DNA of 64,000 bases from Balanoglossus misakiensis. Lineage: Eukaryota > Animalia > Hemichordata. Below the pieces are notes generated by a model. The model did no database searches. It saw nothing but the letters and a program-made list of their open reading frames with translations, and was not told the DNA's origin. Positions 11,701-55,112 of this stretch are shown one piece after another. Location of the stretch: positions 6,226,137 through 6,290,136 of the forward strand of contig CM082595.2 of the NCBI GenBank assembly GCA_040954595.2. The letters run 5' to 3'. Positions within the stretch are counted from its first letter, which is position 1. The number at the start of each line of letters is the position of its first letter. Position numbers and translations under genes: made by a program.

Positions 11701-14700
11701 CAATCATAGCGGTTAGCCGATCATAATTTTTATTTTTTAATGAGCTCCACCCTTGATAAGACACAGCTGCTTCCGAATTGTGTTATCTTCCCCCTTTTTT
11801 TATTTTCACAATCATGTATCACTCTCGGAGGGTAGGCTATTGATCTATTCAAAGTTCAGGGCCCAAAGGACAGAATAATCGCGGCACATTCATTTGTTGG
11901 TCATTTTCATTTAAAGGGACAAAGTCGCTCTTTCGCTGCCCTTTTTCCATTAATAATGTTTGATACAAGATACTGTCTATGTTATTCTACATGGATATAT
12001 AGTGCATCAACGTTCAAACAAAATTGATGGAAAAGGGGCAGCAAGAGAGAGACTTTGTCCCTTTACTGCTTGAAACAATGACGGCCAAACCTGCTGTAAT
12101 GATGTTAAAGAGGAAAAATTAACGATGCACTAATTTTGATAAAAAGTAATAATTTGTTTCCGTCGGGGATTTGAAGTCAAGTTCACACAAGTGTGGGAGG
12201 AATACTCTTAGTTTATCATGGCCATGGTCTTACTGGACCTATCACATATGGGAATAATTTATTTTTTAATTTGCGACTGACATCGGCCCAAATTCAATGT
12301 ACAACTATAAAGGTCATTTTCGATAATACTTTCATTTTTTATATTGCTACAGCTTAATCTGAAAGGGGTTCAAGTCATCCAAATACCATCATCAGACAAA
12401 CTGGAGCAATATAAATGATAAAAAGCCATTTTCCATTAATGAGGCCATGTATTAAGTTGTTAAAATGCAAGTGAACATAATCAGCTGAAATTGTTATCCT
12501 TCAGGCTAGTTTAAGCTGAGCTGTCTATGATGTTCACAGATTCTGTCAAGGTTGCCAGTAATGAAGATGCCAAGTGTATCAGCTATGATCCAGGCTATGT
12601 CAAGGAAAGTTCAGCTTCATATCCAAATATAATTTTAAAATGTATTAATACAGTTGTGTTTGTCAGCCTGCTTTTCAATTTCATCAGTATTTGTGGATAT
12701 TTCTACATGGTCTTGCGAAATTTCTGACATTTCAAATAACAGGTTTTGATTTCTGGATTTGAATACTGAGAATAAACTATAATTATGTGCAATCTCGTTT
12801 TTTATCTCAGTGCATAGCCTAACAGCAAAACTGTAGTATATATCTTCTGGCACACCCCCAGATATTGACCAGGATTTACCCAGTCCATCAACACACTCAT
12901 ATTTGAAGCATCAGCAATGTTATTCTGGCTCAAAAATCTTTACATGTAATATGTTATCTCAAAACCAACAAAACACTCAGTGCTTATAATATCAGAAGAT
13001 TAATTTTTGAAATAATCTTCTTTTTATATTTCATATTTTTTTTGTATTTCAAGAGATCTATATTTTATTGAATAATCTTGCACACCAGACCTTTGGAGGC
13101 AAAGATTACTTACCTGTTTCAAAATCCCAAAGCTTACTGCCATCCTTGGCGTTCAGAGCATAGAAGTAACTGTCTTCACCACCAAAATATATCACTTTTC
13201 CATCAGGACTGAAGGTTGGACATGAGCCTAAGTCACTGTTACCTAAAATGAAAGAAATTTACACTAAGACTGTATTGATAATGTACACCAACTGTAATTT
13301 TTTTGAAAACCAGGATTGAAGTTTGTGAAATATGACCAATGAGAGTATCTATCATAATGCATTTTGTGCTACTACATGTCTGTCTTCAAAGCATATAACA
13401 TTTACAATACTGTACCAGAGAAATGTTAAAAGACACCAGTTTTAACACATTTTTTTAAAGTCAAATATATCTGTTTGCATTGCATTAAGTGTCATTGAAA
13501 CATTGCAGCTTCAATTTCCAGTTTCAAGGAGACATTGCAACTTTAATTGAGTTTCATTCAGACAATGAACATTTAAAATACAACAATGAGAATTATTTAG
13601 ACAATGCTGCTTTAACGCATCAAGTTTCATTGAGATTGCAGGGCAGGTTCAATACAGCCAGTTTTAATTCGAATATACCCTGTTGGGTGGCTTACTAAGA
13701 AGAAAATCTGCTTACATTGTGATGTTTGTTATTGCCTAGGGTCAGATTAGATTTAAGGAGCAACTTTTCCTTGACAGATGAAAACTTTGGTCTCTGAGGG
13801 ATATACTTTGATATTTTTGCAGAAATCATACCCGGAAGAAACTAACCAGATAATAGGGATTCTGAAATCCTTATTCAGTGTCTTGAGGCCATCATTAAAG
13901 TTCTTATCAGCACAAACAAGGCAGCATTGTGGCTGTCCTCTCAAACTACACTATTTGTCATTTTTTGTGATGACAGACTGTCGGTTTACATTTCAATACT
14001 CCAATCAGCACTCAATATCCGTCAGAGTTAGTTATTATAAAATCGAATTCTGATATAATAATCTTAACTGCTGTATGGGTGAATGAACACATAAGGGTCC
14101 AAGTCTCAAAGTTAAATTTTTGCGATAACATAATCCCGAATTGATTTTTGGCTTTAAAAAGTCAGCAATTTCCAGTTTTTACCCACTTCAACTGTTAAGG
14201 TGAGATACTTGGCTTTATGACATGAATGGTTTTTGCAGGTTCCCATGTTGTTTTTGACGAGACTATGGCTTTGAAAAATATACAGGAAGCATGCAGTCCT
14301 ATATGTACCTAAGAAATGACTTTACTGGCTTAGTTCATAATCTATCCTGTGTGAACATGAAAACTGTCTACTATCGGGCATTAAAGGTATACGGTCACCT
14401 ATGGAAAATTAGCTATAGTTACCATGGCAAATTGAGATCTAGCCAATCACTGATTTTCAGCGGGTGGCACATACAAAAAAAAGAGCGCCACCATATCTTC
14501 TTTAGAACACTCCGATACGCCATTTCAGCCATATACGGGCTATGTAAATTGGAGGTGACTGTTTACCTTTAAATTTAGAAACTAAACATAACGGCAATAG
14601 CAGTCACGAAATGTGATAAAACAGGCATCACAGGCGTCAGAAACTCTTATCCTCTATATATGGCGAGAGTATTAGCCAAGGAAGGGCTTAGCTGTGATGG

Positions 14701-17700
14701 CAACATGACCTGCCTTAAGTACCATCTGATGTGAAATCCATTCTGGATAACACTGTGTTTGCATTCAAGGGGACCTCAATCACACAAAATTAAATTAATT
14801 TCATGCATTCTTGCTACTTACCTTGTAAAATCATGTCTAATTCAAAATTAATTCTTGCTACTTACCTTGTAAAATCATCAGTCTAATTCAAACTTAACAA
14901 ATTGGTCAATAATGCAATCATTATTTTTCAAAAGCCATTATGCTGCATCTATTATTGAAAAATATAGCTCAGCACATTAACTTACTTGTTTCGAATTTCC
15001 ATTTTATCTTCCCAGTTTTTGCCTCTAATGCATACATATGACTGTCTTCGGCGCCAAAGTAAATCATTTTGTCACGCGCGTCAACTTTCTCATAAAGTAT
15101 TACTTTGCTTCCCGGCTTGTCGGGTTTCTTCCAAGTTCTTTCTTCTGGTTCGAATTCTATGTTATCTTTCTTGCTGTATTTGGAGTGTTTCCCTTCAAAG
15201 CATTCTTCATCATCGTCTTCGCAAGAGCCGGTTCCCGCACCCTCGCCGCTTACAAATTCACCTCTCTTCACCCTGTAGTCGGAGATAAAGCGCACCACAT
15301 CATGCAGCATGAACTGGCCAGGGTGCTTGGCCTCGAATCGGTCCATGTCAGCGTCGAGTTTGTCCAGGTCGATTTCCGGGTTGAGTTCGATGTCATTCAT
15401 TTCTTCAGCGTTGAGCAGGACTTCGAGAGACTGGAAGTTGGTCAGAATGTGGTCGTCGCTGCTGGACGACGTCAGGACCACGACGTCCTGATAGATCGCC
15501 CATCGCAGGACAACGTTTGCAGGAGTGCGTTGTTGATTGTACGCCACTGACTGAATTAACGGGTTTTCCAGGATAGGATTTACACTTATGTACATGTTGA
15601 AGGTCCACTGGCGGCCAAGGGGACTGTATGCTATGTACTGAATATTATGCTGCTTGCAGAACTGGCGAATTTCAGTGTCCCGGTGGTAAATATCCATCCA
15701 GTTTTGCACGATGGAAATCGGGGCCTTTGTGAAACTCAGCAGTTCGTTCAACTGCGTGATGTCGAAGTTACTGACACCGAGACTACGGATTATTCCGTCC
15801 TTCTGCAACTTTTCCAGAGCCCTCCACGAGTCATGCCAGGTGCCTTCCGGACCCTCCGGATCGCACGTCAGCAGGAAATCATCGCAGTCAGCAGCATGGA
15901 TCAGGAAGACATCGATATAGTCGGTCTGCAGTTTCTTCAGACTTTCCTCCACTGATTTTAACGTGGAACTATAGCCGTGGTTCTTTGGATGGAGCTTATC
16001 AACGATGATGATTTCGGATCGCGGCAACCCGGACTCCTTAATTGCTTTCGCTAAAATTTCCTCCGAGTCAGGATAACCCTGCGCCGTGTCAAACATTCTG
16101 AAAATTGAAAGAAGTCAACCCAACGTTAAAGGAAATACTCCAAAAACATTTTTTGGCATTTTAGGGATTAGATGGTTGGACATTTTTGTGTCATAATGTG
16201 AAGATCAATCCCATCACATCAGCAAACTTCACACATCCACTTAAAATTCAATTTGGTAATCCATTCAGAGAGGTTTCATTGTTTTTCACAATTAATTATA
16301 ACAGTCTTTATTTTTTATCTGCATATGGCCATTATTACAAATAATTGCAGTTAATTACATTGGATGCTTAATTACCAATAATCTTATAACAATGCCCCCA
16401 AATTATAACCATCAATAAGGTGCAATTATGGTGATTTAGATTAAATGGATCAATTCTTGTGGAATTTGATATAGAGTTCATCCCTTTCTGTACATAAATA
16501 AGAGGAATAAATAGCTTTTATTCCCCCAATTTTAACCACCCTTTTCCTCCTTTAGAGAAATCATGCCAAACCCTTCTAAGAAACACATATAATGAACAAA
16601 TGATCAAATAAATGAATGAACAAATGATTGAATTGCATAAATGAATAAATGAATAATAAACAATTCATAAAACAGCAACAACCAAAAGGATAATACACAC
16701 AGATGACCACACAAAAAGATGGGACCTAAAACCTGCACAATATAGTTCATTGGAGACCAACACCATAATTATAAAATAAATTTACAAAATGGACAGGAAA
16801 ATATCACAATGTTCACGTGCATCCCAGTTTGGCAAGCCCATATGGTAGATAACTTAATCAAATTCTATTTTTGTATTGCGAATACATCCGATATGACGGC
16901 ACAGCTGCAGGTGGTAAGATTGAAAGCACACTTGAGAACCATTTTCCCCAATCCACTTAAGTCAATCTGCTCAGAAGGTTTTCTCCGCTATCTGTGATCT
17001 ATTACCCAGATATGAAACAAATGTTCCGGTGAAAATTATGCCCTGTGTGGAATTGTGAATACATATGTACACACTTGCTGGAGAAGCTTTCATCTCATAT
17101 TCCTATCTTTTCGTTCGACACAGTGATAGGTTACAAGTTTTGTAATGATTACAGTGGTATGATTTATTTTGAATTTTTACTTATAGATATCATTGGGCGT
17201 ACCTGTAGCCTACTTCCAGAGCTCTTTTGACCGCTTTGTAGGTCTTGGAATCCAATAATCCGGTTCCAAATCCTAACACTGGAACTAAATATAAAGAGCA
17301 CAGATTGACATTAGAAAGTGGGTTTATGATTATCCTGGACCCAAAAACAAAAAAGCAGTGTAAGTTGTAAATATTGTCAAATATTAATTATTTGAAAAGT
17401 GCAAATTTAATTATGTGAATTTTGCAATTTTTCTACCCCAGAAAATGTGTACTTTAGTTTTATGCTCATAACATACATACATACATACATACAATAATAC
17501 ATACATACATGCATGCATATATATATACATCGCCCACATGCAACAGTAATACAAGGTTAAACCCTTGTCAATACATGGCCCTATCTTGTGAATTACCTTT
17601 TTCCTTCTTTAAGAATTCTTTCATTATTTATGATAAATTTTCAGGAGCAAAAAGTCCCTTGCCATGAAATCCTCACATCGATATTTAAAAATTCATAATG

Positions 17701-20700
17701 TTTCAAGGCAGAATTGACTAATCAATGTAAAGTATGATTGACGCAACTCCCCTGAAAGAAGACAGATATCTGGTGTATGTCAACATTCAGTTGGAGATGT
17801 TTTCATCCCTGCAGAGATGAATTAATGGCTGCCTGAGAGACCGACATCATCGCTGAGATTATTCTAATTCACATGGCCGACGTAATTACGAGAAATGACG
17901 ACAGGGATGAAAGGAAAAAACCCTGGAGATACCACTCGGTAGGATCTTTGATTAATATCACCATGGAAACTGAGATAGAGGTAGATTAACATTGCCACGG
18001 AAACTGAGATTATCACAGAAGAGCAGCTGCATGAGAACACGCACATTTCCAGTAAGAAGATTCTGTTTTGATAATGAAAGCCAAAGACACTTTTATAAAG
18101 AGAAGAAAATATGAGTTAACACTTATGCGAGCGATTTAACTTGATCAAATGCTACATGACAGGAGACATGCAAGTGTGGTATACATTAAAGTGTACCTAC
18201 ACAGATGCAAGTATATGTGTCCCACAATGCCACTGCCCTTGGGTTTGAGTGACTTTATGCAACATTTTCTTTAAAAAGGTCCATCGGCTATTATTAAAGG
18301 TATACGGTCACCTATGGAAAATTGGCTAGAGTTACCATGGCAAATTGAGATCTAGCCAATCACAGATTCTCAGTGGGTGGGCACACGCGAAAAAAAAGAG
18401 CGTAGCCATATGTTCTTTAGAACACTCAAATACACCATTTCTGACATATATGGGCGTATGTAAATTGGAGGTGACTGTATACCTTTAACTTTCTGGGTTT
18501 TTTTTCAATCTATTTCATCTGTATATCAACTATACACTTTCTTGTTCTTCTCCCCATAACATGCTAAACTACCAGCTTTCTGATTGTTAAACATATGTGT
18601 TACAACCATTGCTATTTTTGAAGAAAAAAAATGAATTCAGGCCTGGCCTCAATTCAACAGTTAACAACCGCGCCTGATGGACCTTTAATAAAAGTTTAAA
18701 TTTCATTACACAACTTTATATTATTTTTACTTATTATTTTTTTACTATTGTCATAAAAAAATGTCATATCCACAGTGGGTTTCTGGTAGTTCACTGAAAG
18801 TTCATCAAAGGTCAGCACAATTACAAAGGATAAAAGTGTGTAAAACTTGAATAGTTCAACCTACTCGTGTATCCTGTATTGAGTAGTTTATCTGCCGGTT
18901 GCTGTATCATGACGTTTGCGTTCTGTGTCTCGTTGGCATTGTTCTCTCTCAGAACAGTGGACAGCTTCTTGTTCTTGGCCCTTTTCTTGCACTGGATTTT
19001 CTCTGGCTGCTGCTGGATGTAGTCTAAGTACAGGTTGACGCTCTCTTCTACCTGCACGTCCGGGTCTATGTCCGCTTGGTCTAGCGCTTCGTCGTGGTCG
19101 AACACGTAGAACCACATGCTGATTGCGATGTTGGGCGACCCGTAGGAGCGCACCTACAGGACGTATACTGCACGTATTTAGCTTCACTTGATTATAAGGT
19201 CATTAATCAGGAAATTTGTTCTTTAATCCATCACTCAACAAGCACACTATATACATGACAAATCAGTGTTCTCCCCAGGATTTTGGAACAGCGTGGTGGC
19301 TAATTTGCATAACAATATATGCAATTGTTATGTGCTCTATTGTCTTCTCAAAATTAAAGAGTGGTGGCCACCATGCTTTAATTGCTCTGGGGAGAACAAT
19401 GCGATGTACATACATACAGACAGCGGTAACCACCACATTTGGGGAAGGGAGAAGTAATCTGAGGTAAAACGCTGTGCTGTGTTCAAGCATACAACAAAAC
19501 AGTCATGCCTAGGTCTTGAACCCACAATTCATTTTTTTTAGTTTGTTATCCCAGGCCACTGGACCATAATGCCTCTTCTGTAGTTTTCATCACAGTAGTG
19601 CTGTGATGACGATGACAGTTGTAGAAGTAGATCAAGGGATGGGCACTTCATCTGGAAATGGCCCTTACCGGTAGGCAGTACGGTAGCACAAATTATGCTA
19701 TGCCAACTGCAGATCTTACCTGATGCCACCAGAACATAGGTACGTACAACTGATCGCCCGCTTCGATTTCTACCTCGTAGTAGTCAAGATCGGCCATCTT
19801 GGGGAATTTCAGAAGATCGACTTTTTCCGGCACGATAGGCGAAAGTCCCGGCAGGGTAGTGAAACTGTTGGCATACGCTTTGTCGCTGTCCCTGGGGTGG
19901 GCCAGGAGGAAGATTTTGCGACCGGAGAGAACGGTGATGATGTTTTCGTAACCGTCGTGGTGGAACACATAGCTGGTGTTGCCCGAGCTGAAGAGCAGAC
20001 TTGCCGCGTCAATCTGAGGGTTGACGTAAAGTAAAGAAGAGAAACTGAGGATGTTAAACCTGTATGAGTTTTAGTACTTCATTTCTTCAGATAGTGGATA
20101 CTGGAAAACTTGTACAGCGAGTATCACTGTCACAAGTGTGCAAAACCAGCAGAAGTCATCATGTTTTATAAATCTGAGGCCTACAGCCTCAGTTGCTGGT
20201 CCACTTTCGAATTAGCTAAGTCCAGAGTAGCTTTACGAAGACATTCTATAGATATCTATAGAATATTGTATAGCCTACATGTCAGATAGGCCTCAGTTGC
20301 TGGTCCACTTTCGAATTAGCTAAGTCCAGAGTTGCCGTACGAAAACATTCTATAGATATCTATAGAATTGTATAGCCTAATGGATTTCATAGAATTTTAT
20401 TGAACTTCTATGGACATCTTCAGATTTCAACGTAGTTTAGGACGCTTAATTAGCTAAGTCCAGAGTGGCCTTACGAAAACATTCTATAGATATCTATAGA
20501 ATTCTATAGCCTAATGGATTTCATAGAATTTTATCGAATTTCTATGGACATCTTCAGATTTTGATGTAGTTTCGGACCCTTTTTCTACTGAATTCTATAG
20601 AAGCATCAAAATCTATAGAATGCTATAGAACTCTAGAACATGTTTTGTACTGGAGACCCTACCTTTGAATAAAGTTCTTCACATTCGTGAACAGCAGGAA

Positions 20701-21154
20701 TGAATGCGTCGTACAGCAATCCACTCATAGGGAAGGGAGAGTCCAGATAGATCGGCTTCTCCTTGTAAGTCTTCAGGAAATCTTTCAAATACATATTCAT
20801 TCGTGGCGGGTGCTTGTCGTCCCACACTTTCCTCAAATCCACCCGGAAAACTTCCTCGCCGAAATTCTCTCTGAGGTAGTCTTCGTCCTTCCACAGGTGT
20901 GTGGCCGGCCAGTGTTTTGCAGCCCCTTTCATAAGCAGTGGCCTGCTCGCTCGCACATAGTTTGTGTAGAAGTCTTCCCCGCTCGGTGGCGTGTCCACAA
21001 CATCAATGACCCCTTTGATTGGCGGTTTGTGGGCGCCGAAAGGCTGAAGGTGGCCCCGCGGAAAAACCACATGTCCACTAGTACTGTCCTCATTTGCATA
21101 TGAAAATATGCACAGATGAAGGAGTAGGCAGACCGCTTCACGTAAGATTAGCAT
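8753..21154 (-). CDS. Secretory-pathway fusion protein: signal peptide + JmjC 2OG/Fe(II) oxygenase + aldo-keto reductase + 8-blade PQQ/BamB-like beta-propeller (~1072 aa, 10 coding exons)
   Basis: Exons 20663-21154, 19720-20013, 18865-19153, 17203-17284, 14986-16097, 13114-13242, 10603-10839, 10031-10240, 9683-9844, 8753-8964 total 3219 nt, all GT-AG and in phase. JmjC: FHHDGYEN...GDQLYVPMFWWHQV. AKR: LNTGYT/IPVLGFGT, DTAQGY, VDKL, LIH, LGVSNF, AYSPLG. Propeller: repeated SSP...YFG..DG..YAL...G...W units. Confidence 0.9.
9446..9637. mobile_element. MITE family A (TTAA target, AGG...CCT termini; Kolobok-like non-autonomous)
   Basis: ttaa|aggtatacggtcaac...ggtgactgtaccaggtatacct|ttaa; near-identical copies elsewhere in the window. 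Confidence 0.85.
10940..11112. repeat. Dispersed 'tctataga'-rich repeat, reverse-complement relative of 20460-20640
   Basis: gtaggctatagaattctaaagatgtc...agaatgttt mirrors aaaacattctatagatatctatagaattctatagccta. Confidence 0.6.
11251..11305 (-). promoter_or_regulatory. Two tandem CTCF-consensus motifs
   Basis: gctgccctctagtgg (reverse: CCACTAGAGGGCAGC) at 11251-11265 and 11291-11305, inside a ~40-bp tandem duplication. Confidence 0.5.
11915..12062. mobile_element. MITE family B, internally deleted copy
   Basis: ttaa|agggacaaagtc...gactttgtccct termini shared with the longer copies at 31696 and 59699. Confidence 0.8.
14385..14568. mobile_element. MITE family A
   Basis: ttaa|aggtatacggtcacc...ggtgactgtttacct|ttaa. 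Confidence 0.88.
14807..14892. repeat. ~45-bp tandem duplication
   Basis: attcttgctacttaccttgtaaaatcat(ca)gtctaattcaaa occurs twice. Confidence 0.8.
18298..18484. mobile_element. MITE family A
   Basis: ttaa|aggtatacggtcacc...ggtgactgtatacct|ttaa. Confidence 0.88.
19264..19401. mobile_element. MITE family E (cagtgttctccccag TIR, possibly hAT-derived)
   Basis: TIR cagtgttctccccag...ctggggagaacaatg; inverted copy at 26042-26186. Confidence 0.7.
20186..20640. repeat. Degenerate tandem repeat (3 partial units, tctataga-rich)
   Basis: aattagctaagtccagagt...acattctatagatatctatagaat recurs at ~20211, ~20314 and ~20448. Confidence 0.8.
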
Positions 21155-23072
21155 CCTGCTGAAAAGTTGTTGTAAACTTACTTTAAGGAAAGCATTGGTC
21201 CAAATCTGGGGGAGGGGAGAAAAGATTTTATTACACCTTCAGAGATCATGTTTATACGTACAAAAACACATATATATTGATGTTTTGAAAATACAATTTA
21301 CGCAAAAAATGGATTTTCTACCCAAATTGAACACAAATGTATGACGTTCTTGTTAGGCACAGTGTTAGAACACAATGTGCCGTATGTCAGCGGACCGTAG
21401 TGATGGTAACCTCATGCTCCGTGCATGGTATCATCAGCAGGGAACGTTTCAATTTTGAACGTGCAATACCTTTATACCATGAAAGAAAAGATCATCACAA
21501 ACTATAAAATAATTAACACGAAAGTCGGCTGGTGATAATTAAAACACTTTAAATGGCGGTCGACCGATTAAAATGATAACTTGGAAAGCAACTGACTTGT
21601 TTTTACTTCTTAAAATCTGAAGTCACAAAAATTTAACATACTAACCCTTGCCTTGATAACAATGGGAGGTTAAAAAATCTTCCCAGAGTGTAAGCAGCTG
21701 GTACGATAAAACGAGTGTCGGACAACTTTGGCTGAAGGGGTTTTAATTGAATGCAACCCAGGTGGCACAGTGGCAGACTAAACAACTGAGAAGAACACAG
21801 AGATCCATGTCACAATGCAAAAATCGACAAAGGTCATTTATTCACACAATCAGCAACAAAAACGCCAATATGCTCAGAGTCAACCAAAGCCTAGCATAAA
21901 ACATACATGTAGCTCACCAGACATATTCACAAATGCTCTACTACCAGTATGATATTTTTAAAATTCAAATTTTCACACTTTTTATTTATAACCTCTATAT
22001 ATACCCGTTTTATCTATGACATGTAGGGCTCTCTAAATACATTAAAGCTATCAATTCTCATACATCTATATTAATCAAAAGATCTAGAATTTACAGGAAA
22101 TTTATCATTCAACAAAATCAACATGGATATTTTGTTAGCAAACCACTGTCCAATAAGTACATGTTCTGTGAACATATCAAGTGACCACTTTCAATCATTT
22201 AATGTCCCTTTTTTCTAATTGCTGTGGTTTACTGATTCTCATGTTACCTCACCTCTACATATATGTCAATTACAGACCCTTTGCATATAGCAAGCACTTT
22301 GTGTATATGAAATTTGAGAAATGTTATACCTCCTTTAATTTTAGAGAAACAACAGCTGGTCAACAGGAATAGTTTACCTTCACCTTCATATACAACCACT
22401 ATTTTACATGCTCCCTTGCCATATATGACAAGGCTAACCTAGCACATTTACATATGTGAATTAGCATCCGTCTAAATTTTAGGTCGGCCCTGACCCCCCC
22501 CCCCCCCCCCCCCCCTTCCTACCAGGACCAAACTATTAATCTCCACTAGTCCGACGCAGCTATTCACATTGGTTATTTTTACACCGGCCCCAGACCAGCA
22601 TCGGTGCTACACCGCTGTAAACTTTCAGTCTGAATCCCTTAATTAATATTAAATATACAGTTACACCAGAGTCAATCTGAGTACATGTAATTCTATCTTT
22701 CCCGTTTGATAATCTCAGATTTAGGCTATGGTTGCTTGGTGTTATACCCGGTACATCATATGCTCATCAAGGCATAGACCTGATCTGAAATTACAGCGAA
22801 CAAGAGCGTACAGGTTGCAAGTAAATCTTTAGGTTTCCCTCCAACAAGTCGCAGGAAATTTTCTTGTTCAAATACACTCAGAAAAATGTTTACGTTACAA
22901 ACATTTAGTTCATGCAAATATCCTGCACTGGACTGATCAACCATTTTTCAAGTTATAGATGTTTTAGATTCTGGATTGTGCTGGCTCCATACATCCTACA
23001 TCCTCAAATGTCAAATTAAAATGGCTGTGCATCGATCTTGAATATTCTGAAGAATCTGACTCAAACTGTTAA

Positions 23073-30205: not shown

Positions 30206-32664
30206 ATGGCGTCAAATGCTTTGAGTGTAGTGAAGTACGTGGTCTTTGTTACCCTGGGAGTCGGCATTGCGTTTACAGCTGCATTTGTCTATAAGAAGCG
30301 AAGGAAACTCTTTCAAAAGTAAGTCAAGATCTCTTTCAAGAAACTAAAAAATTTGCGGTTTTTAAAATAAATGCTTGGATATAAATGTGTACCAATCTTT
30401 GATTTGCACCAACTTTTTTTTGCTCGTTATTTGCGACAAAACTGAAAAGAAAAATAACATCTGACATTTTCTTTCTGCGCAGACGCAAAAGAATGTTGAG
30501 CCTGGAAGACTTCGAACGAGAAGCAATGAGTACTTTACCCAGGTTTACGCATGCGTTGATTGCCCATGGCACTGGGTGCAGAGAAACCGTCGAAGAAAAT
30601 ATTGCTGCCTTTCAAAGGTGATGGAGATCTCTGTGGTATTTAAAAGACTGTGTATTTCGTTATGAATGACATGCGCGTATCTCTTCGACGGTGTGTGAAT
30701 GAGGCTTACTTGATTTGTTCTACGTTCCAAGCCGACCAGTTGCTAGCAAGTCAAAGTAACACACAGTATAACTGCTACTAGTACAAAAAACATCACTGCA
30801 AACAACTCTTCTTTCTTTTTTGTACTCTGAAGGTACAGTATCAGAAAACGCGTAAGGAACGATTTCCCGGATCTGAGCACGACCATACTGGACCATTACG
30901 TGGAACTACCCATCGGCATTGGCCCATCTATGTACAGGTCGTGGTTATGGGAAGAAGGTGATCTGTGCGTCTCTAAAGGTGAGTGAGGTCTCTTCATTCA
31001 TTCATTCATTCATTCATTCATTCATTCATTCATTCATTCATTCATTCATTCATTCATTCATTCATTCATTCATTCATTCATTCATTCATTCATTCATTCA
31101 TTCATTCATTCATTCATTCATCCATTCATTCATTCATTCATTCATTCATTCATTCAGTCAGTCAGTCAGTCAGTCAGCCTGAGTCAGTCAGTCAGTCAGT
31201 CAGTCAGTCAGTTATTCCACCGGTAAGGCTAACTTAATTCACTGTGTTTGTTTTCGCCACCAGCTGCCGGATTCCTAAATATCTGCGAGATTGTTCCGAT
31301 GCTGTCCGATTACTCACTGGAGGAAATAATCGAATACAACAAGAACTCAGAGGCCGTGAAGTGGCTTCAGATTTACATGTGCGACGATGGGTATCACGAG
31401 AGCCTCGTTCGCAGAGCGGAAAAGGCCGGGTATCAAGGTGGGGATGTGATCTTATCCAATTCACAATCTGATTAAAATCTGATGTAGGGAACGGCGACGT
31501 GTTTTTTTATGCTGTCGCCTAGCATAAAAAAACACGTCGCCGTTCCCTACATCTGATTTTAATCAGATTGTCCAATTCATTACTGTAATGGGTAGGCGAT
31601 TTTTTTCCGGGATGTCGAGAGCTGGGCCACGGGGCCGTGATGTTACAAGGACCCACCCTCGTTTGACATGTGCACGAACTATGGTGTAGGTTTAAAGGGA
31701 CAAAGTCTCTCTCTCGCTGCCCCTTTTCCATTAATTATTTTTGATACAAGACATCGTTTATATTATTCTACGTACATGTGAATATATAGTGAATCAGCGT
31801 TCAACCACACGCAACTTCCATATCCCACTTGCAGACATGGGAGTGAAAAACTCGCCAAAATGAATAATCGCTGTTCACCATTTATTCATTTTGTCGAGAT
31901 TTTTACTCTCATATCCTACAAACGGGATGGAAGTTGTGTGTGGTCGAAACGTTGATTCACAATATATACACACGTAGAATAACATAAACGGTGTCTTGTA
32001 TCACACATGCTTATTATAATGGGGAATGGGCAGTGAGAGAGAGACTTTGTCCCTTTAATTCAATAGTTTTCACGGCAACTGGGACGTCACTGGCACGAAA
32101 ATCCCGAATTATAATGGTGTACGGCAGGTTGTGTTATCCATGTGGTATTATTTGTCTTAGGAATCGTTGTATCTTCGGGAGGATACGGATACGAGGAGGA
32201 ATCGGAGTGTGGCGAGTGGACGTTAGCAATTACAAATATTCTCGATAAACTCACGGCTATTAGGTTAGGGAACTTTGAAAGAATGAGTCCCTCTAAAGCA
32301 TTTGAAAAGGTTAGTATCTCTTCGGTCTGACTGAATGGAAAGTTATCTATAATGAGTTTCAGTGTTGGATATCTTCGCAGGCAACGCAAAGAATTTAAAA
32401 GCATGACAGCCTGAGATTGGCAGGCAAGCAGTCAGATAATGGGTAAAAGAAGGAAAAAATCGCGAGCATATTTTTTCGTTATTTTTGACCTAATTGGAAT
32501 GAAGTAAACTGTGCGAATTCTACCAACCTCTGTCCATTTTCCCTGTCTGTCTGTCTGTTTGCCTGCCTGCCTGCCTGTCTGTCTCTGTCTGTCTGTCTCT
32601 CCGTCTCTCTCTCTCCCCTCTCTCTCCCCCCTCTCTCTCTCTGTCTGTCTGTCTCTCTCTCCCT

Positions 32665-32708
<44 letters not shown>

Positions 32709-33718
32709 CCCCTCTCTATCTGTAGCATAGTATTCGTCCAACCACATGGAAAGACGTGAAAACATTACGAAGTTTTACAAACCTTCCTATGATTCTCATG
32801 GACATAGTGACGCCTTTGGAAGCACAGACGGCCATAGAACATGGCGTCCAGGGTATCATAATATCCAACGAAGGTGGGAAAACAGTTGATTCGCTTCACG
32901 GAACAGTAAGTGAGACTCTAAAATTATTCCATTTTGGTCAATGGAGTGAATAAATATAAATTAATTTCCGGGATGATTCTCGAAGACTGCATTTTGGTAT
33001 AAATCTTCTAAGTGCATGCATAGTGGGGGGACACAAAGAAAATGTTTTAATTCTGGATTTCTGAATTTTACATTGTCACCTTTCTTACGGTCAACGTGAG
33101 TTGCCACGCGGCATCAGAGATCTGTCGCTCGACTCGTCACACGGCACCAGTGTCCATCGTGTTTGCTGTGATAATTGTTGCATTTAAACCCAAATACATG
33201 TACTTGATCAAAACAGACGATGCATTGTGCAGCGTATGTGTGTTGTGTGTGTCGCCGTATATTGTGTTAAAGTTTGCTCAGTCCGTCGTAATAAGTCGGT
33301 TCATATATTCACCAGCACCCAATGGATGAAAAAATACCCAAAGGGAAGTGAATATAGGCTTATACGTTTAACAATCCATAACTCTCTCGCTGTCGAGGAC
33401 TGTTGTTCTGTATAATACTTCTCTTTCAACATGATTGTGAATTCTGTCAATTCCCTTGGTAAAATTACAGTATAACTTAATTTTCTACTGAAATAGCTGG
33501 ATATACTTCCTGATATATTGTCCGCTGTGCAAAACAACATTGAGGTCTACGTCTACGGCGGTGTGCGATCGGGGAGTGACGTCATGAAAGTGCTGGGCCT
33601 CGGTGCGAAGGCGTGTTTCGTGGGCCGTCCTGTGTTGTACGGACTCTGCTACCAGGTGAGAGTACAGTCATTAACAAACAACAACAACAACAACAACAAT
33701 GACAACAGAAGCAGCAGC

Positions 33719-33752
<34 letters not shown>

Positions 33753-34245
33753 CACGTCCAAAACTGCCATCATCGATTAAACATTTTGGGCAGTTTACGT
33801 ACGTCGACAAAAAACCTGTGATTTATGATTCATAGTATGTAAATTGTGAACTCTGCATTTTGCGTAATTTTTTTTCACCTTTAATTTTTGGCAGGGCGAA
33901 GAAGGCGTTATTCAGGTTTTGTCTCTTCTGAAGAATGAACTCGCCAAATGCATGAGCAGCACGGGTGAGGAGTTTCGAGTTGCTTTTCTCTACATCGCAG
34001 CACAGAATGACGGACCAAAGTGCTTGGGCAAAAATATTTAAGAACCAGTTGATATAATGTGTAACGTTTCTGAAACGACAAATTTAAGTGTTGCCTTTTT
34101 TGCATCCCATGGCAGAATATTTCATAGTTCGGATAATGACTAAACCGTTCTCCGTTTGCTTTCTCTGCCAGGCTGCACTTCTATTGACGAAATCGGTTCA
34201 TTCTGCGTCGTACGGTCATCCTCTGTCCACGATGACGACGACTGA
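30206..34245 (+). CDS. FMN-dependent alpha-hydroxy acid oxidase (HAO/glycolate oxidase family) homologue with N-terminal membrane anchor and degenerate active site (~399 aa, 9 coding exons)
   Basis: Exons 30206-30318, 30483-30617, 30833-30978, 31264-31437, 32161-32309, 32726-32905, 33497-33655, 33895-33964, 34172-34245 total 1200 nt in frame. Family motifs LEDFE, DLSTTIL, WLQIY, RRAEKAGY, GGVRSGSDV, GAKACFVGRP, GEEGV. Probable non-coding first exon ends at 29225. Confidence 0.88.
30993..31212. repeat. (ATTC)n grading into (AGTC)n microsatellite
   Basis: Direct inspection. Confidence 0.97.
31464..31570. mobile_element. 107-bp foldback MITE with 9-bp target-site duplication (Mutator/MULE-like)
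   Basis: 50-bp inverted arms with 1 mismatch around a 7-nt loop (gtcgcct); flanked by tccaattca at 31455-31463 and 31571-31579. Confidence 0.88.
31696..32054. mobile_element. MITE family B (TTAA target, long inverted arms; Kolobok-like)
   Basis: ttaa|agggacaaagtctctctc...gagagactttgtccct|ttaa; nearly the whole element is an imperfect palindrome. Confidence 0.88.
32544..32718. repeat. (TC)n/(TGTC)n low-complexity tract ending at a splice acceptor
   Basis: Direct inspection. Confidence 0.9.
33673..33751. repeat. (AAC)n microsatellite
   Basis: Direct inspection. Confidence 0.95.
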
Positions 34246-35671: not shown

Positions 35672-38600
35672 ATGCAGAAGTTTACCGTAGCTGTAATCTT
35701 GGTTGTAGTGTGTGGGTGTGTCGCTTTGGACGACCCAAAATCATGGCCCTTCGCTGACCCGAACAAGTTCGCAGTGGCGGAAGACAGTGGTTCTGAGGTC
35801 GACCAGGAATTTCTGGCCAAACCAAAATGGTTGTACGATTTGGACGGTAGACCGGTCGCCGTGTTCGAGAACGTAGTCAGCTACAAGACCGTGTATGCCC
35901 TGTCAGTGTATCAGTTTCTGACAAACTATTGGAGGTAAGCGAATCAACGCATTGATACAAACAAGTTTTCGTGGTGTCAATTGCATGGTAAATGCTGGAT
36001 TCATGTTAAATATCAAGAAAACTTTCACTTTCGCACTTAGTCTTTAAATTCGCTTCACTATAATATCTTTATTGGCAACCGTATGGCTCTGAGCGTTCTA
36101 TGGAGCTAAAATAAGAACTTTAATTTCGTTATATCCCAAATTGGTCGTTTCCGAGGGCTTTGTTGTAACACGCCGAGTTTGAGTGATTCATGTGGAAGCA
36201 TATGGTTAACTAGGAATTATAACACGGAAAACTTATTAATGAACTTGATAATATTATATAATAATTATGTAATTAAAATCCGACCATCATACTTTTTTGA
36301 CACACTTTATTTTCTCAGCAAAATACAAACACATCATAATTATGTTTTCCACCAAGGTATGGCACAACGCTGGACCCATGCAATGAGAATGACGCTGCTG
36401 ATTCCAATAATGCGCCGTGGAGGTCGAACCATGATGGGGAGGTGTTTGCCGAAAGTTCTGTGGGCAAGGCTGTGCAGGGATTAGTCATGAAAATGAGCGG
36501 AAGCAGTCAACCCTATCATGTCTATCAGGTCACAGATTATGTTATTAGGAGGTAAGAGAGGCAACTTTTTCAGTGGCTGCATCAAGCTCATTTTATATGT
36601 GATGTTATGAAACAGCTTGTACAGTTCTGAAAATTTCTAGCTCAGAATTCCTGGCATGATGAATAACATATCTGATCAATTCAATATTAAAGATTCTAAA
36701 ATGGCTTAGAGCTGTGATGGTTTTGCTGATTCTCGCCTGCTGAGCTGATGTGGATAACAGTCCTTATGCGAAGGGATATTCTGGGACATGGGTACTTCTA
36801 TAGAAATAAACAATAGCCCTTTTGTCTGCTGCGCACAGAACACAGTTTTATTGGGAAACAAAAGGTTGGCTGTGCATTGTTTAAACCTGCATATGCTCCT
36901 TTATCAGCTGACACATAAATTGGTAAATGATTGCATTCAGCATGTATCCGATCTGTCAAGGCAACAATTACTATGTCCAGACTGTACAATGCATGTAGGA
37001 AATAAGCTGGAGTTTTTTTGCAATTATTTGCTATCTCACATTTGATTGGTTCATTTAGGGGTGATGTCATCAAACTTCACCACGATGCCACTAGGGAGGA
37101 TAGGGAATTCTCAGCTCTCATTTACTTGAACGAGATCTGGAAGAAGAACTATTACGGAGAAACGATGTTTTACGACAACGATGAGGAAATTGCCGCAGTT
37201 GTCAAACCGAGCTTTGGCAGAATTGTCATCTGGGAAAGTTCTGTTGGTGAGTGTAAAAATTTAGGAAAGCATGTACGGCCTGGCTAGTTAAAGGCCATTC
37301 TCTCGATCCCAGGACAGTACAATGAAGGCAAATAAGACATCCTTTGTGTTAGCACCTAACTGTTTATTGGAAACACAAGATTTGCTCCACTGTTGAGAAG
37401 GGCCTTTAAATATTCACAGACCATGCCAAAGCATTCGGATAATCCAAAATTCGGATTATTGGTGGTCGGATAATCGGTGTTCCACTGTAATAAGGAGACA
37501 TCATGAGGGTATCGAACTCACAATCAGAGAGTTGTGGGTTCGAGACCTGGACATGGCCGTGGATTTTATATCTGAGGATGGTGACTTCATAGCCGTGATG
37601 TTGTGCCCTTGAGCAAGGCACTTTACTTCTCATTGCTTCTCCCTTATCCAGGAGTGGCAGGGTGCCTCATCCTGTTATTGGGCTATAGTCACCTGTTGGA
37701 AGATGGATAAATAATTAGTGTATAACCAATTAATTTTATCAATATTTATAGGGAATGGGTCGTCGCGCCACAAGGGTGTCCCCCCTTGATGAGAATATGC
37801 CCTCCCATACCATACCAGCGCAAACCCCACTGCAGTCGCCACGACCTACTAGGATCTTCAGTTGCTGCCATGCCCAGTCTACACTACAGTTGGCTGCTTC
37901 GTTCATTCTAAGAATGATCTAATTTGTTGTGGATGAATTGTAATGTTTATAAACAAACGCGGCGCGACGACCCCTTCACTTTAATTTAGTCCACTGTGCA
38001 TTTTGCATCACTGATCACAAATTCCTTTGCCTTGTCACAGATTATCTGCTTCGCCCGCCAAGTATCAACTTCAAACAAGGACAGAGAATTTTACATATCA
38101 AGTACACCACAAACACCACCAAGGTGGAAACACACAAAGCAAAGAGACTGGCTGAAATAAAGGCAACCCAAGAAGCCACAGGCGAGATATTTGATCACAG
38201 TGATAAACCCCTCAACAAACAACTCGATGTACAGAAGCACTTCGTACAGGTATGGTATTAAAGGTGCACTGTCACCTGTGCTAATTTAGTCTCTAATTGA
38301 GAGCTAGCAGATCGCAGATTTTCAGTGGGTGGCCAAGTGAAAAAAGAGCGCCACAGAAGATCCAGACATGCCCATTTAACTACATGTGTGTATGTAAATT
38401 ATAGGTGATTGCATTTCTCTGTGCTTAACATAGCCCATTGTGTTCACAATTGACATTGTATTCAAGTCCAATGATCGGTGCATGTATGCACATGACTTGT
38501 TGACAAGCAGAAGAAAATTGGTTGTGAATTAGAACATGTAGCTGTACCGGTATACAAAACAAAAATGTTAAACAACTTGCCAAAAGTTACAAGCTTCAAC

Positions 38601-41600
38601 ATGTTAACACATGCGTACATGATTTAGCTGGCAACTTTTTAAAAATAGTATCTTATTATTTAAAGGAATACAAGGCATCAGATGGTAGAAGAATTGTCGT
38701 CTTAGACGATCTCTTCGATAGCAAAGATCTGGATGAACTAAGAAGCTACACGTTAAAGTATGGTAGGTTGTTCATTGCCTTTAGCCCTTTCACAACCTTG
38801 GTTTGGTCCAAACCCATTGTTTTCTATGGTGAAGTTGGACCTCAATACAGGGAAATGGGGGTGAAAGGGTTAAAGATGTGCAAATTTGGATTTGTACTCT
38901 GAATCTGTGGCTGGCCCTGTCATTCCGTCAGTTTTCACTGTTGCACCCAGCTACGTATAGGAAGAAAACTTCTGAATGACATCATGGTTCACGAGATGGT
39001 CAGGGTGCAAAGCATCAACTTTTCACCCTTTCACCATAATGGTTCGTTCCAAAGCCATTGTTTCCTAGAGCAACTTTGGACCTCTACACAGGGAAACAGG
39101 GATGAATGTGTTACGTGTGATAATGCCACCTGTTGATATAAAACATGTTCTCCCGTAATTTCCAGGAGAATACTTCTATGATGAGAGCCTTGACCTTGAG
39201 TCTGACAATGTCCAGTGGATCGCTGGCTACGAAGTGGACAACTTCATCCAGAGTAGATTCTGGAACATTACCCGACAGGTGATGACTTTTGTCACAGGTG
39301 AGAGTTCGCAAAACTCAATTGGAATATCTGTTATATGCAGCTTAAATGGACAAAGTTACTCTCTCGCTGCCCTTTTCCATTAATTATGTCTGATACAAGA
39401 CACCGTTTAAGTTATTCTACATGTGGATGTATAGTGAATCAACGTTTGACCACACACAACTTCCATTCCGTTTGTATGATATAAAAGTAAAAATCTCACC
39501 GAAATGAATAAATGGTAAACACCGATTATTCATTTTGGCAAGTTTTTCACTCTCATGTCTACGAGTGAGATGGAAGTTGTGTGTGGTCAATACTTAAACG
39601 AACATTGATAACTTTGTCCAAGCAATGTGAAAGGCATATATAGTTAGAAAGTTGGTTTATCAACTAAAACTTTTTTGTCTTCACCACAAGGCAAGTCTGA
39701 ATGGTTCCCGTACGATGTGTCATGTAATTTAGTGCGAAGTGCTGACCACACCCGCATCCATCATGACTGTGAGATTGATGAGGAAGAGTGGACTTTCCTC
39801 GTCTACCTGAACCCAAACTGGACGGAGAATTACTATGGAGAAACAGCGTACTTTGAGACGAACGATGATGATACAGAGTACATAGCAGGTACATTACACT
39901 ATCAGAACTATGCTTCTAACTGGGATCACTCAGGGTCATCCCAGGGTTAGCAAAGAGTACATAGCAGGTACATTATATAAGTTTCTAAGCGGGCACTTTA
40001 GGGTTAGCATAGTTAGCATGTCATTATCACATATCACATTCACAGAAGTACAAGCTACGTGAAGAATAGAGGTAACTTACAGGGAGTACTCCTGTCCAGT
40101 GTTTATCAAGTGGCAATGATATTACACTATCAGAACTAAGTTTCTAAATGGGCCAACTCACCTCAGGGTTAGCAAATTTAGCATCTCATTGTCACATCAC
40201 AGTAGCACAAAAATAGATAGACAATAGCACAATAACGGCACAAGCTATGTGAAGAATATAGGTAATTAGCTGGCATTGGGTACTCCTATCCAATGTTTGT
40301 CTAGTGAAAAATAATATCAATACTGTCCCAATAATTACATCTTTCGACAAAATGGGGAGGATATGGGGATCTCATCCAAATGAAAATGTGATTGGCCTCT
40401 CTAAACCTCCCATGATACTGTTGAAAGTTGGGGATAGTATACTAGTGCCTTGGAGAATTTTTCTCATAGATTACAATATTTGTGCACCTGCATCTGTTGG
40501 CTGGATTCTGACTGAAATAGTTTACATCTGCTTTATGTTTGTAGAAGTGTTGCCAGTGTACGGCCGGGTTGCCATCCACGAGGGCTACATTCCCCACTCT
40601 GCCAGACCACCAAGTTCACTCTACCCAGGTGCAAGGTAAAGGGTCCCTTCTGGAATACTGTAGAATACTTATTATAATTTTCACTAGGACTTTATTTTCA
40701 CTATTTTCAGTGGACTCATTTTTCCGCTAAAATAAAATCGTGATGAAAATTCTTATTTCCTATTCTTTGCAAATAAGATGACAAGAAATAGTATAAATAA
40801 CATAAAAAATGTTTTTAGCAAAAATAAATTCCAGTGATAATAATGTATTCCACAGTATACAATTGTGAACAGACTTCTATGGAATATTTTGCAGTAAAGT
40901 AAGCTATATATAGGGCATCTGGTTGGACAAGAAAAGGATATTCTGCTAGTGGCACACTGCCAGCAATTTGTTGGGTTTTGCTATATCTGCACTGCAGGCA
41001 TATATCTATTTCTGTATTTATTTGCACACAAGCTTTTGTCTGTAGCACTCTCTGTTTTACGTTTCGGTTCATGCCTTGATATTTTTTCTTTTGACAGAAC
41101 AAGTACATGTAGATACATACTGTAAAACACTTTATTTTCTCGAGCAATTAATTTTCGCCAAATACGCGAGAGCCAAAATAGCGTGAAAATAAAAAAGTCG
41201 CGTAAATTGTTTTTGAAGATAACGATGCAGTGAATGAAATAAGAGAACACGAGAGGTAATACTCGCGAAACAGTGGCCTCTCTCGATATCGCGAAAAATT
41301 TAATTCGCGAAAATAAAGTGTTTTACAGTATATCATGTTTCTATTCTGTGTTTCCTTGATTTGCCATTTGTTTTCATATAAAAACTACACCACAGTCACT
41401 ATAGATAACACATTAAAAAATTAACCCCTTCATACTGAAATGATTGACCGCCATACTTGATTCATTTTTGTTGTTATGTTCACTCACAGGTTGACGTTTG
41501 CTGTGAAGATGTCGGTCAATGAACAGACAGCAAGGATCAAAGGCATTATGGAGAAGTATCGGCAGGAGGAAAGTCTTACAAGATTTTTTATTCCAATACT

Positions 41601-53800: not shown

Positions 53801-53811
53801 TTATGGGTGTT

Positions 53812-53984
53812 TACCATTTATTCATTTTGGCGAGATTTTAACTCTCATATCCTACAAACGGGATGGAAGTTGTGTGTGGTCGAACGTTGATTCACTATAT
53901 ATCCACATGTAGAATAACATAAACGGTGTCTTGTAGCAAACATGATTAGTGGGAAAAGGGCAGCGAGAGAGAAACTTTGTCCCT
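53812..53984. mobile_element. MITE family B, right half
   Basis: Ends gaaactttgtccct|ttaa; matches the family B arm. Confidence 0.8.
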
Positions 53985-55112
53985 TTAAGATACTAGCACG
54001 GACACAGCAATATAATCATATTTACTTATACATTTAATTGCCAATATTTAAAAAGAGGATTATACAATACATATCAGTTCATCAGTTTGGGTCTAAGAAA
54101 TGTAACAGAAAATTTTATATTAAATGTCAAGTCCAATGTATTATTGTGTCAACTGTTTTTAATTTATGTTTCTATGAAAAATATCAGTTATACAGTAAAT
54201 AAGATTGAATTTAAAACAAGAAATGCTATAACAAGAAATTGTGAAAGTTTTGTGAATAAAATGGATAGTTTCAAAAAATGGATTTATAAAATGAATTGAA
54301 AAGAAATAAATTTTTCATTTGTATGCTACGTCAATTATATGTGATTGAAGGATGTTTTTCTTGAAAGTAATAAGGAGTACAAGGTCTGGGGTTGGGGTTT
54401 ATGGGGGAATAAGGACGGGTGCCAGATTTACTGCAGAAAAATCAGAATGATAAATAGAACTGTTCAGATTCATAGTAAAGATGGATTAAGGAAAAAAATA
54501 TGATAACTAAGACCACACATATACTCTCAAGAATTGAACTTGTAAAATGGATGTTCTAACAGTATTTCAAAAAAACGGTTTAGGGATTTAACAATTTTGT
54601 GCTATTTTTTGATTAACTATGAACATTTTATAATAAAGATATGTGCAGAGCTGCTTGTATGTGAAATAAAGAGATTTGTCAAGGTTGTACTGAACTTAAC
54701 CTGTCGTCAGCAAAATTGACTGAGTACTACCGCCTACAAACAAAATATCTCTTACGTCTAGAGGGTCTAAGACTTATTTGGATTTGATGTTTTTGGGGAA
54801 ACCCTTTCACGACCTTTTCCCCATACAGAGGTCCAGCATGGCCTTGGAGATCAATGGAGTTGGACCAAACCATTGCCTTGAAAGGGTTAATTCTCAATAT
54901 TTTAATTAAAGCACCTGGTACCTTGCATTGTCAGTGGTGCAATTGTTCTAGAGAAATGTTCCTGTTGTATACAGTGTATGTCTGCAAGCAGTAAATTACA
55001 AGGTGTGCCCTTGGCCATGCATAAGACAAAATAAAATGCAGAAATACGAATAAAAATCGGCAGAAAAAAAACACCAGTGCACAAATACTGTGGTCTGTCT
55101 TGCTTGGCGAAG

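What the first reader, a model, noticed from the sequence alone, without database searches (positions are those of the whole stretch)
30206..34245. Hydroxyacid-oxidase homologue with intact ORF but systematically replaced catalytic residues
Seen versus family consensus: SNHG(A/G)RQ reads SNEGGKT (catalytic His to Glu, Arg to Lys); the FMN-binding Lys of xKGI reads LMDI; TVD reads SSG; YDYY reads HALI; DGGVR reads YGGVR. WLQIY and GRP are kept. All nine exons stay in frame with canonical splice sites, which argues against decay. Inference: a maintained pseudoenzyme (scaffold or sensor) or an enzyme with new chemistry.
Basis: partly seen in the sequence, partly recalled or inferred. Interest (0 to 1): 0.72.

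Follow-up and report, generated by a model that had tools for sequence, protein, structure and literature searches.

The report
Acorn-worm membrane-anchored dead flavin oxidase
This intact acorn-worm gene encodes a glycolate-oxidase-like protein whose catalytic and flavin-gripping residues are replaced in the same way in three species, so it is likely a long-maintained, predicted membrane-anchored non-catalytic protein rather than a decaying gene.

Summary
Observation confirmed and extended. A 9-exon, 399-codon gene (all introns GT-AG, no stop) encodes an alpha-hydroxy acid oxidase barrel with His260→Glu, Lys236→Met, Asp160→Gly, Arg167→Glu, Arg263→Lys, Asp291→Tyr and Tyr26→Leu (human HAO1 numbering). 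The flavin-phosphate arginines are kept. Orthologues in Ptychodera flava (80.9%) and Glandiceps talaboti (70.4%) carry the same or equivalent replacements, so it is neither an artefact nor decay. Differences are conservative (0 of 2000 neutral simulations reach the observed score), and the orthologues diverge more slowly than a sister paralogue group. The gene belongs to a clade of nine anchored acorn-worm paralogues, in which catalytic residues were lost at least twice. The old pocket is no better conserved (11 of 15) than the rest of the protein (70%), unlike working enzymes. That favours a pseudoenzyme over new chemistry, although the pocket's charge is reversed to acidic. No activity, expression, dN/dS or binding data could be obtained. 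New variant of a known kind; moderate interest.

The parts
30206..30318 (+). Exon 1 (ATG; aa 1-38): hydrophobic anchor and basic flank
   Evidence: upstream frame closed by a stop 3 codons before the ATG
30236..30292 (+). Predicted transmembrane signal-anchor helix, aa 11-29 (19 uncharged residues; net charge +9 in the next 15 residues)
   Evidence: helix in the AlphaFold model of the orthologue
30483..30617 (+). Exon 2: HALI motif (Tyr26→Leu63, codon 30556-30558) and His66 (30565-30567)
30833..30978 (+). Exon 3 (GIGPSM, flavin backbone-contact loop)
31264..31437 (+). Exon 4: Ser108→Pro143 (31296-31298); WLQIY with Gln130 and Tyr132 kept
32161..32309 (+). Exon 5: Thr158/Asp160→Ser194/Gly196 (32172-32180), Arg167→Glu201 (32193-32195), acidic loop 4
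32726..32905 (+). Exon 6: Lys236→Met264 (32798-32800), Gly237→Asp265, His260→Glu288 (32870-32872), Arg263→Lys291 (32879-32881)
33497..33655 (+). Exon 7: Asp291→Tyr319 (33554-33556); phosphate-site Arg295 (Arg323) and Arg315 (Arg343) kept
33895..33964 (+). Exon 8
34172..34245 (+). Exon 9 with stop; acidic C-terminus, no SKL-type peroxisomal signal

Best explanation
It is a conserved acorn-worm paralogue of glycolate/hydroxyacid oxidase that has lost its catalytic and most flavin-contacting residues and likely works as a non-catalytic, predicted membrane-anchored protein, probably as a structural or regulatory partner of other proteins. Shown: intact gene, replaced residues, orthologues in two other species, conservative divergence, membership of an anchored paralogue clade. 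Predicted: intact (beta/alpha)8 barrel and an N-terminal signal anchor with the barrel facing the cytosol (positive-inside rule, recalled). Inferred: no 2-hydroxy-acid oxidation, weak or no FMN binding. Most likely mechanism, untested (about 0.3 on its own): co-assembly with its anchored sister paralogue, which keeps Lys, His, Arg and Asp, tuning that enzyme's localisation or output. The family's oligomeric state is recalled, not from a call.
For: Residues named in print as substrate-binding or turnover residues (Tyr26, Arg167, Arg263, Asp160, Lys236, His260; passages of PMC9114433, PMC7912158, PMC10153336) are all replaced in all three orthologues. Replacement is targeted: 8 of 13 active-site/FMN side chains against 10 of 49 other family-conserved columns, Fisher p=0.0066. 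Protein-level purifying selection: mean BLOSUM of differences 0.49 and 0.45 against neutral -0.47±0.19 and -0.52±0.15, reached by 0 of 2000 runs each; runs free of stops were 44 and 2 of 2000. The P. flava-G. talaboti pair is 72.7% identical here against 52-53% in sister clade B. Long stem (0.58) and short crown branches (0.08-0.12), support 100/100. The pocket is not conserved above background (11 of 15; binomial p=1.0). Model of the orthologue: pLDDT 87.7, best Foldseek match human HAO1. All 9 clade proteins have an N-terminal uncharged run of 15-25 residues followed by net charge +4 to +9. Catalytic residues were lost separately in a clade B protein (AU p=7e-5), so anchored paralogues can persist without them.
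Against: No activity, FMN-binding, localisation or expression data. Met264, Asp265, Glu288, Lys291 and His66 are invariant in all three orthologues, and loop 4 is acidic in all three (-4 to -5 against +1 to +4), which fits a rebuilt site. Gln130, Ser258, Arg295 and Arg315 are kept, so a phosphorylated ligand may still bind. The pocket test rests on three sequences and 15 positions. The clade B comparator P0240 is itself degraded, which inflates the rate contrast. His260 alone is replaced in 24 of 425 domains and Ser108 is Pro in 27 of 419, so these single changes are not diagnostic. No evidence was obtained for the partner.
Confidence: 0.62

Rival explanations
1. The pocket was rebuilt, not abandoned: a cationic flavin/carboxylate site became an acidic site (Glu288, Asp265, acidic loop 4, His66) that binds a metal ion or cationic ligand beside the retained phosphate site, giving new flavin-independent chemistry or a sensor.
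For: His→Glu, Gly→Asp and Lys→Met occur only in these three proteins among 425-426 domains. Loop 4 charge is reversed. The long stem followed by slow crown branches is typical of a change of function. Both phosphate arginines are invariant.
Against: Pocket invariance equals background. Positions 158, 167, 132 and 291 vary among the three orthologues.
Confidence: 0.22
2. It still binds FMN or another flavin through the phosphate site and acts as a flavin carrier or slow electron-transfer protein. P. flava luminescence is reported to need riboflavin.
For: Gln130, Ser258, Asn259, Arg295, Gly314 and Arg315 are kept. Riboflavin in acorn-worm luminescence: passage in PMC4208949.
Against: Ser108, Thr158, Lys236 and Asp291 (ring and ribityl contacts; these roles partly recalled) are lost while the phosphate site is kept, the opposite of what a riboflavin binder needs. 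Nothing links the gene to luminescence.
Confidence: 0.09
3. Ordinary hydroxyacid oxidase with altered specificity, as its database name ('2-hydroxyacid oxidase 2-like') implies.
For: Fold and Pfam family kept; automatic names.
Against: 10-11 of 14 key positions are replaced, whereas 365 of 373 domains have 3 or fewer replaced.
Confidence: 0.05
4. Decaying pseudogene, or a sequencing or gene-model artefact.
For: No transcript evidence was obtained for the window.
Against: Intact frame and splice sites; same replacements in two independently annotated genomes; neutral simulation rejected.
Confidence: 0.02

Closest known systems
Human HAO1 (glycolate oxidase) and mammalian HAO2 / long-chain hydroxy acid oxidase (PF01070)
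   Same: Best sequence matches among solved structures (E 8e-69 to 5e-64 for the Glandiceps orthologue) and best fold matches (E 1e-35, 33-36% identity). Phosphate-site motifs kept.
   Different: Catalytic His, Lys, Asp and both substrate arginines replaced; N-terminal anchor added; no peroxisomal C-terminal signal; acidic loop 4.
Acorn-worm anchored HAO-like paralogues, clade A (S. kowalevskii A0ABM0M9E4, P. flava XP_070568845.1) and clade B (e.g. XP_006816601.1, XP_070554212.1, XP_077984186.1)
   Same: One clade with the window gene (99/98); N-terminal anchor; Ser108→Pro; no peroxisomal signal.
   Different: Clade A (sister group, 38-46% identical) keeps Lys236, His260, Arg263, Asp160 and Asp291. 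Most of clade B keeps them too; one P. flava copy has His→Gln and the Glandiceps copy lost them independently. No functional study of any was found.
(S)-mandelate dehydrogenase of Pseudomonas putida and flavocytochrome b2
   Same: Same barrel. The first is membrane-associated according to its PDB title (1huv).
   Different: Both are active flavoenzymes. Mandelate dehydrogenase attaches through an internal loop, not an N-terminal helix (recalled).
Pseudoenzymes in general (pseudokinases, iRhoms; recalled)
   Same: Fold kept, catalytic residues lost, conserved over long times, often partnering an active paralogue.
   Different: No pseudoenzyme of the FMN alpha-hydroxy acid oxidase family was found in the paper searches.

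Membership tests
FMN-dependent alpha-hydroxy acid oxidase/dehydrogenase (PF01070) | Homology and (beta/alpha)8 fold | tested here: met
   4 of 9 exons hit PF01070, 3 above the curated cut-off; orthologue model matches HAO1
FMN-dependent alpha-hydroxy acid oxidase/dehydrogenase (PF01070) | Catalytic His260 with partner Asp160 | tested here: not met
   Glu288 and Gly196 in all three orthologues
FMN-dependent alpha-hydroxy acid oxidase/dehydrogenase (PF01070) | Flavin-contacting Lys236 | tested here: not met
   Met in all three; Lys in 420 of 425 domains
FMN-dependent alpha-hydroxy acid oxidase/dehydrogenase (PF01070) | Substrate carboxylate clamp Arg167, Arg263, Tyr26 | tested here: not met
   Glu/Glu/Asp, Lys, Leu
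FMN-dependent alpha-hydroxy acid oxidase/dehydrogenase (PF01070) | Tyr132 and Gln130 | tested here: inconclusive
   Gln kept in 3 of 3, Tyr in 2 of 3
FMN-dependent alpha-hydroxy acid oxidase/dehydrogenase (PF01070) | FMN phosphate site (Arg295, Gly314-Arg315) | tested here: met
   Kept in all three; the adjacent Asp291 is Tyr/Tyr/Cys
FMN-dependent alpha-hydroxy acid oxidase/dehydrogenase (PF01070) | FMN binding and 2-hydroxy acid oxidation | not testable with these tools
   Needs biochemistry
Peroxisomal HAO1/HAO2 | C-terminal SKL-type peroxisomal signal, soluble N-terminus | tested here: not met
   Ends DDD/EDN/EDN and has an N-terminal anchor; comparators end AKI, PRL, SKL
Pseudoenzyme | Catalytic residues lost with fold retained | tested here: met
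Pseudoenzyme | Maintained by selection | tested here: met
   Protein level only; orthologue DNA for dN/dS was not available
Pseudoenzyme | Expressed, and without catalytic activity | not testable with these tools
   No RNA run listed; no assay possible
Pseudogene | Stops, frameshifts or broken splice sites | tested here: not met

The most novel reading that the evidence does not exclude
A lineage at least as old as the split of two acorn-worm families moved a peroxisomal flavin oxidase onto a membrane and rebuilt its pocket with reversed charge (His→Glu, Gly→Asp, Arg→Glu/Asp, Lys→Met, new His), making the first flavin-independent, metal- or cation-binding enzyme or sensor on the glycolate oxidase barrel.
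Probability: 0.2. Interest if true: 0.75.

Novelty: new variant of a known kind. Interest (0 to 1): 0.5.

Why it matters
[quoted passage not shown] This gene supplies one, conserved across two acorn-worm families, next to sister paralogues that keep the catalytic residues. That gives a natural series for asking what the barrel does without its chemistry. It also exposes an apparently undescribed membrane-anchored subfamily and shows that the database names are probably wrong. The reach is limited: pseudoenzymes are common, the lineage is small, and the function is unmeasured.

Tried and rejected
Expression: no RNA holder listed. This is no evidence either way. No whole genome is held, so paralogues in this organism and synteny were not tested; tblastn of five family proteins found no second copy within the window. 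Complex prediction of the P. flava orthologue with its sister paralogue was not available, and nothing was folded. The protein atlas and the VIA structure search did not complete (76, 87). dN/dS was not possible without orthologue DNA, so a protein-level neutral simulation was used; it places all change on one lineage and ignores indels. The first exon set had boundaries off by one and was corrected. No Saccoglossus member of the dead clade and no member of the anchored clade outside hemichordates appeared, but these searches are word-limited or show only the best 120-150 hits, so absence is weak. Earlier-findings look-ups were empty. A luminescence link was considered and has no support. Four primary papers on structure and mutagenesis were not held, so mutant effects are not cited. 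No supplements were read.

Full report
Gene model. Translation around the stated coordinates gives nine exons from 30206 to 34245, 1200 nt, 399 residues, eight GT-AG introns and no internal stop. Four exons hit Pfam FMN_dh. No second copy lies in the window.

Observation. I numbered positions on a 370-residue crocodile HAO1 (P0011), whose residues 26, 110, 132, 160, 167, 236, 260 and 263 are those named for human HAO1 in passages of PMC9114433 and PMC7912158. PMC10153336 names His260 as the active-site base (passage). The window protein has Tyr26→Leu, Ser108→Pro, Thr158→Ser, Asp160→Gly, Arg167→Glu, Lys236→Met, Gly237→Asp, His260→Glu, Arg263→Lys and Asp291→Tyr. It keeps Gln130, Tyr132, Ser258, Arg295, Gly314 and Arg315. 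In that alignment (120 proteins less two double-domain proteins and one truncated isoform; 110 non-clade rows) positions 160, 236, 237, 260, 263 and 291 are invariant. In a wider set of 480 domains from 408 proteins, Met236, Asp237 and Glu260 occur only in the window and its two orthologues. Of the 373 domains covering at least 12 of 14 key positions, 365 have three or fewer replaced; the three orthologues have 10, 10 and 11. Against the reading: His260 is replaced by something in 24 of 425 domains and Ser108 is Pro in 27 of 419, so single changes are not diagnostic; the combination is. The FMN-contact roles of Ser108, Gln130, Thr158, Ser258, Asp291, Arg295 and Arg315 are recalled, not read in a paper here.

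Orthologues. A search with exon 6 returned 2 hits among 12 candidates: P. flava XP_070560664.1 and G. talaboti XP_077998814.1. They are 80.9% (322 of 398) and 70.4% (274 of 389) identical to the window protein and share the replacements. The window is therefore most likely from an enteropneust nearer to Ptychodera (inference). The two named species belong to Ptychoderidae and Spengelidae. A passage in PMC11175523 puts the common ancestor of a ptychoderid and a spengelid at more than 370 million years ago; I did not check its source.

Selection. Differences from the orthologues are conservative: mean BLOSUM62 0.49 and 0.45, against -0.47±0.19 and -0.52±0.15 in neutral simulations, with 0 of 2000 runs reaching the observed value in each case and only 44 and 2 of 2000 runs free of stops. 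Variation among the three follows the family's conservation profile (Spearman -0.20, p=0.0002). The same two species are 72.7% identical here and 52-53% in sister clade B, though the clade B Glandiceps protein is itself degraded. dN/dS could not be computed.

Subfamily and anchor. In a tree of 29 hand-picked rows, nine hemichordate proteins form one clade (99/98). The three dead proteins (100/100; stem 0.58, terminal branches 0.08-0.12) are sister to clade A from Saccoglossus and Ptychodera, which keeps Lys, His, Arg263 and both Asp. An 18-row mixture-model tree agrees. All nine have an N-terminal uncharged run of 15-25 residues followed by net charge +4 to +9 (maximum hydropathy 1.65-2.89, against 0.26-1.21 in five soluble comparators) and none ends in an SKL-type signal. 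This is the pattern of a signal anchor with the barrel in the cytosol (recalled rule; which membrane is unknown). G. talaboti also has soluble paralogues, one ending SKL, so ordinary function is covered there. A clade B Glandiceps protein (XP_077984186.1) has Lys→Gln, His→Cys, Arg→Ser and Asp→Gly, and a single origin with the dead clade is rejected (AU p=7e-5). One P. flava clade B copy has His→Gln.

Structure. AlphaFold on the P. flava orthologue with a 72-sequence alignment gave pLDDT 87.7, a long N-terminal helix and an intact barrel; confidence is lowest in the acidic loop 4. Foldseek ranks human HAO1 first (E 1.4e-35). The alignment is dominated by active enzymes, so the model cannot show a remodelled pocket. 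An apo glycolate oxidase structure exists (5zbn title), so the barrel can fold without FMN.

Dead or re-purposed. Replacement is concentrated on chemistry: 8 of 13 active-site/FMN side chains against 10 of 49 other family-conserved columns (p=0.0066). Of 15 pocket positions 11 are invariant among the three orthologues, equal to the background of 238 of 341 columns, while two trios of ordinary HAOs give 14 of 15 and 15 of 15 on backgrounds of 48% and 58%. A new enzyme using the same pocket would be expected to show such an excess, so I favour a non-catalytic role (0.62). On the other side, Met264, Asp265, Glu288, Lys291 and His66 are invariant, loop 4 has net charge -4 to -5 against +1 to +4 in the nine comparators, and the phosphate arginines remain. 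A rebuilt acidic site therefore keeps 0.22. With three sequences the test is weak. The partner mechanism rests on shared anchoring, sister relationship and the general behaviour of pseudoenzymes; no binding evidence was obtained.

Literature. Full-text searches for 'hydroxyacid oxidase'+'hemichordate', 'glycolate oxidase'+'pseudoenzyme' and 'hydroxy acid oxidase'+'catalytically inactive'+'transmembrane'+'paralog' gave 0 papers. 'Glycolate oxidase'+'Saccoglossus' gave two listed papers whose titles and abstract starts concern other subjects (listing only). The library lacks most subscription journals. I read passages only of PMC7912158, PMC9114433, PMC10153336, PMC4908395, PMC4208949 and PMC11175523, and no supplements.

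Verdict. Real, conserved and apparently undescribed. It is a member of the family by descent and fold and fails the catalytic membership tests. New variant of a known kind; interest 0.5.

Noticed in passing
window 31692-32058 (intron 4): MITE-like element with 42-nt terminal inverted repeats and nested inverted repeats; related copies at about 59694-60049, 39342-39587, 53808-53988 and 11910-12065.
   Followed up: partly
window 31463-31571 (intron 4): Near-perfect palindrome: 51-nt arms, 98% complementary, 7-nt loop, flanked by a short direct repeat seen in the sequence; single copy in the window. Possibly a fold-back element.
   Followed up: no
P0240 (G. talaboti XP_077984186.1) and P0008 (P. 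flava XP_070554214.1): Independent loss of catalytic residues in anchored clade B: 9 of 14 key positions replaced in P0240, His→Gln in P0008.
   Followed up: partly
P0003, P0004 (clade A); P0006, P0007 (clade B): Anchored paralogues keep His/Lys/Arg263 but lose Arg167 (clade A, alignment uncertain) or Tyr132 (clade B), suggesting membrane oxidases with other substrates.
   Followed up: partly
window 14969-16114 and about 8753-10855 (- strand): Aldo/keto reductase domain followed in the same frame by the start of a beta-propeller (PF13570-like) whose further repeats lie downstream; possibly an unusual fusion protein.
   Followed up: no
window 19693-21238 (-), 38528-39950 (+), about 56293-61797 (-): Neighbouring genes: JmjC/cupin-8 hydroxylase, 2OG-Fe(II) oxygenase-like exons, M13 (neprilysin-type) peptidase.
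   Followed up: no
position 260: 13 of 425 other family domains have Tyr in place of the catalytic His; not identified.
   Followed up: no
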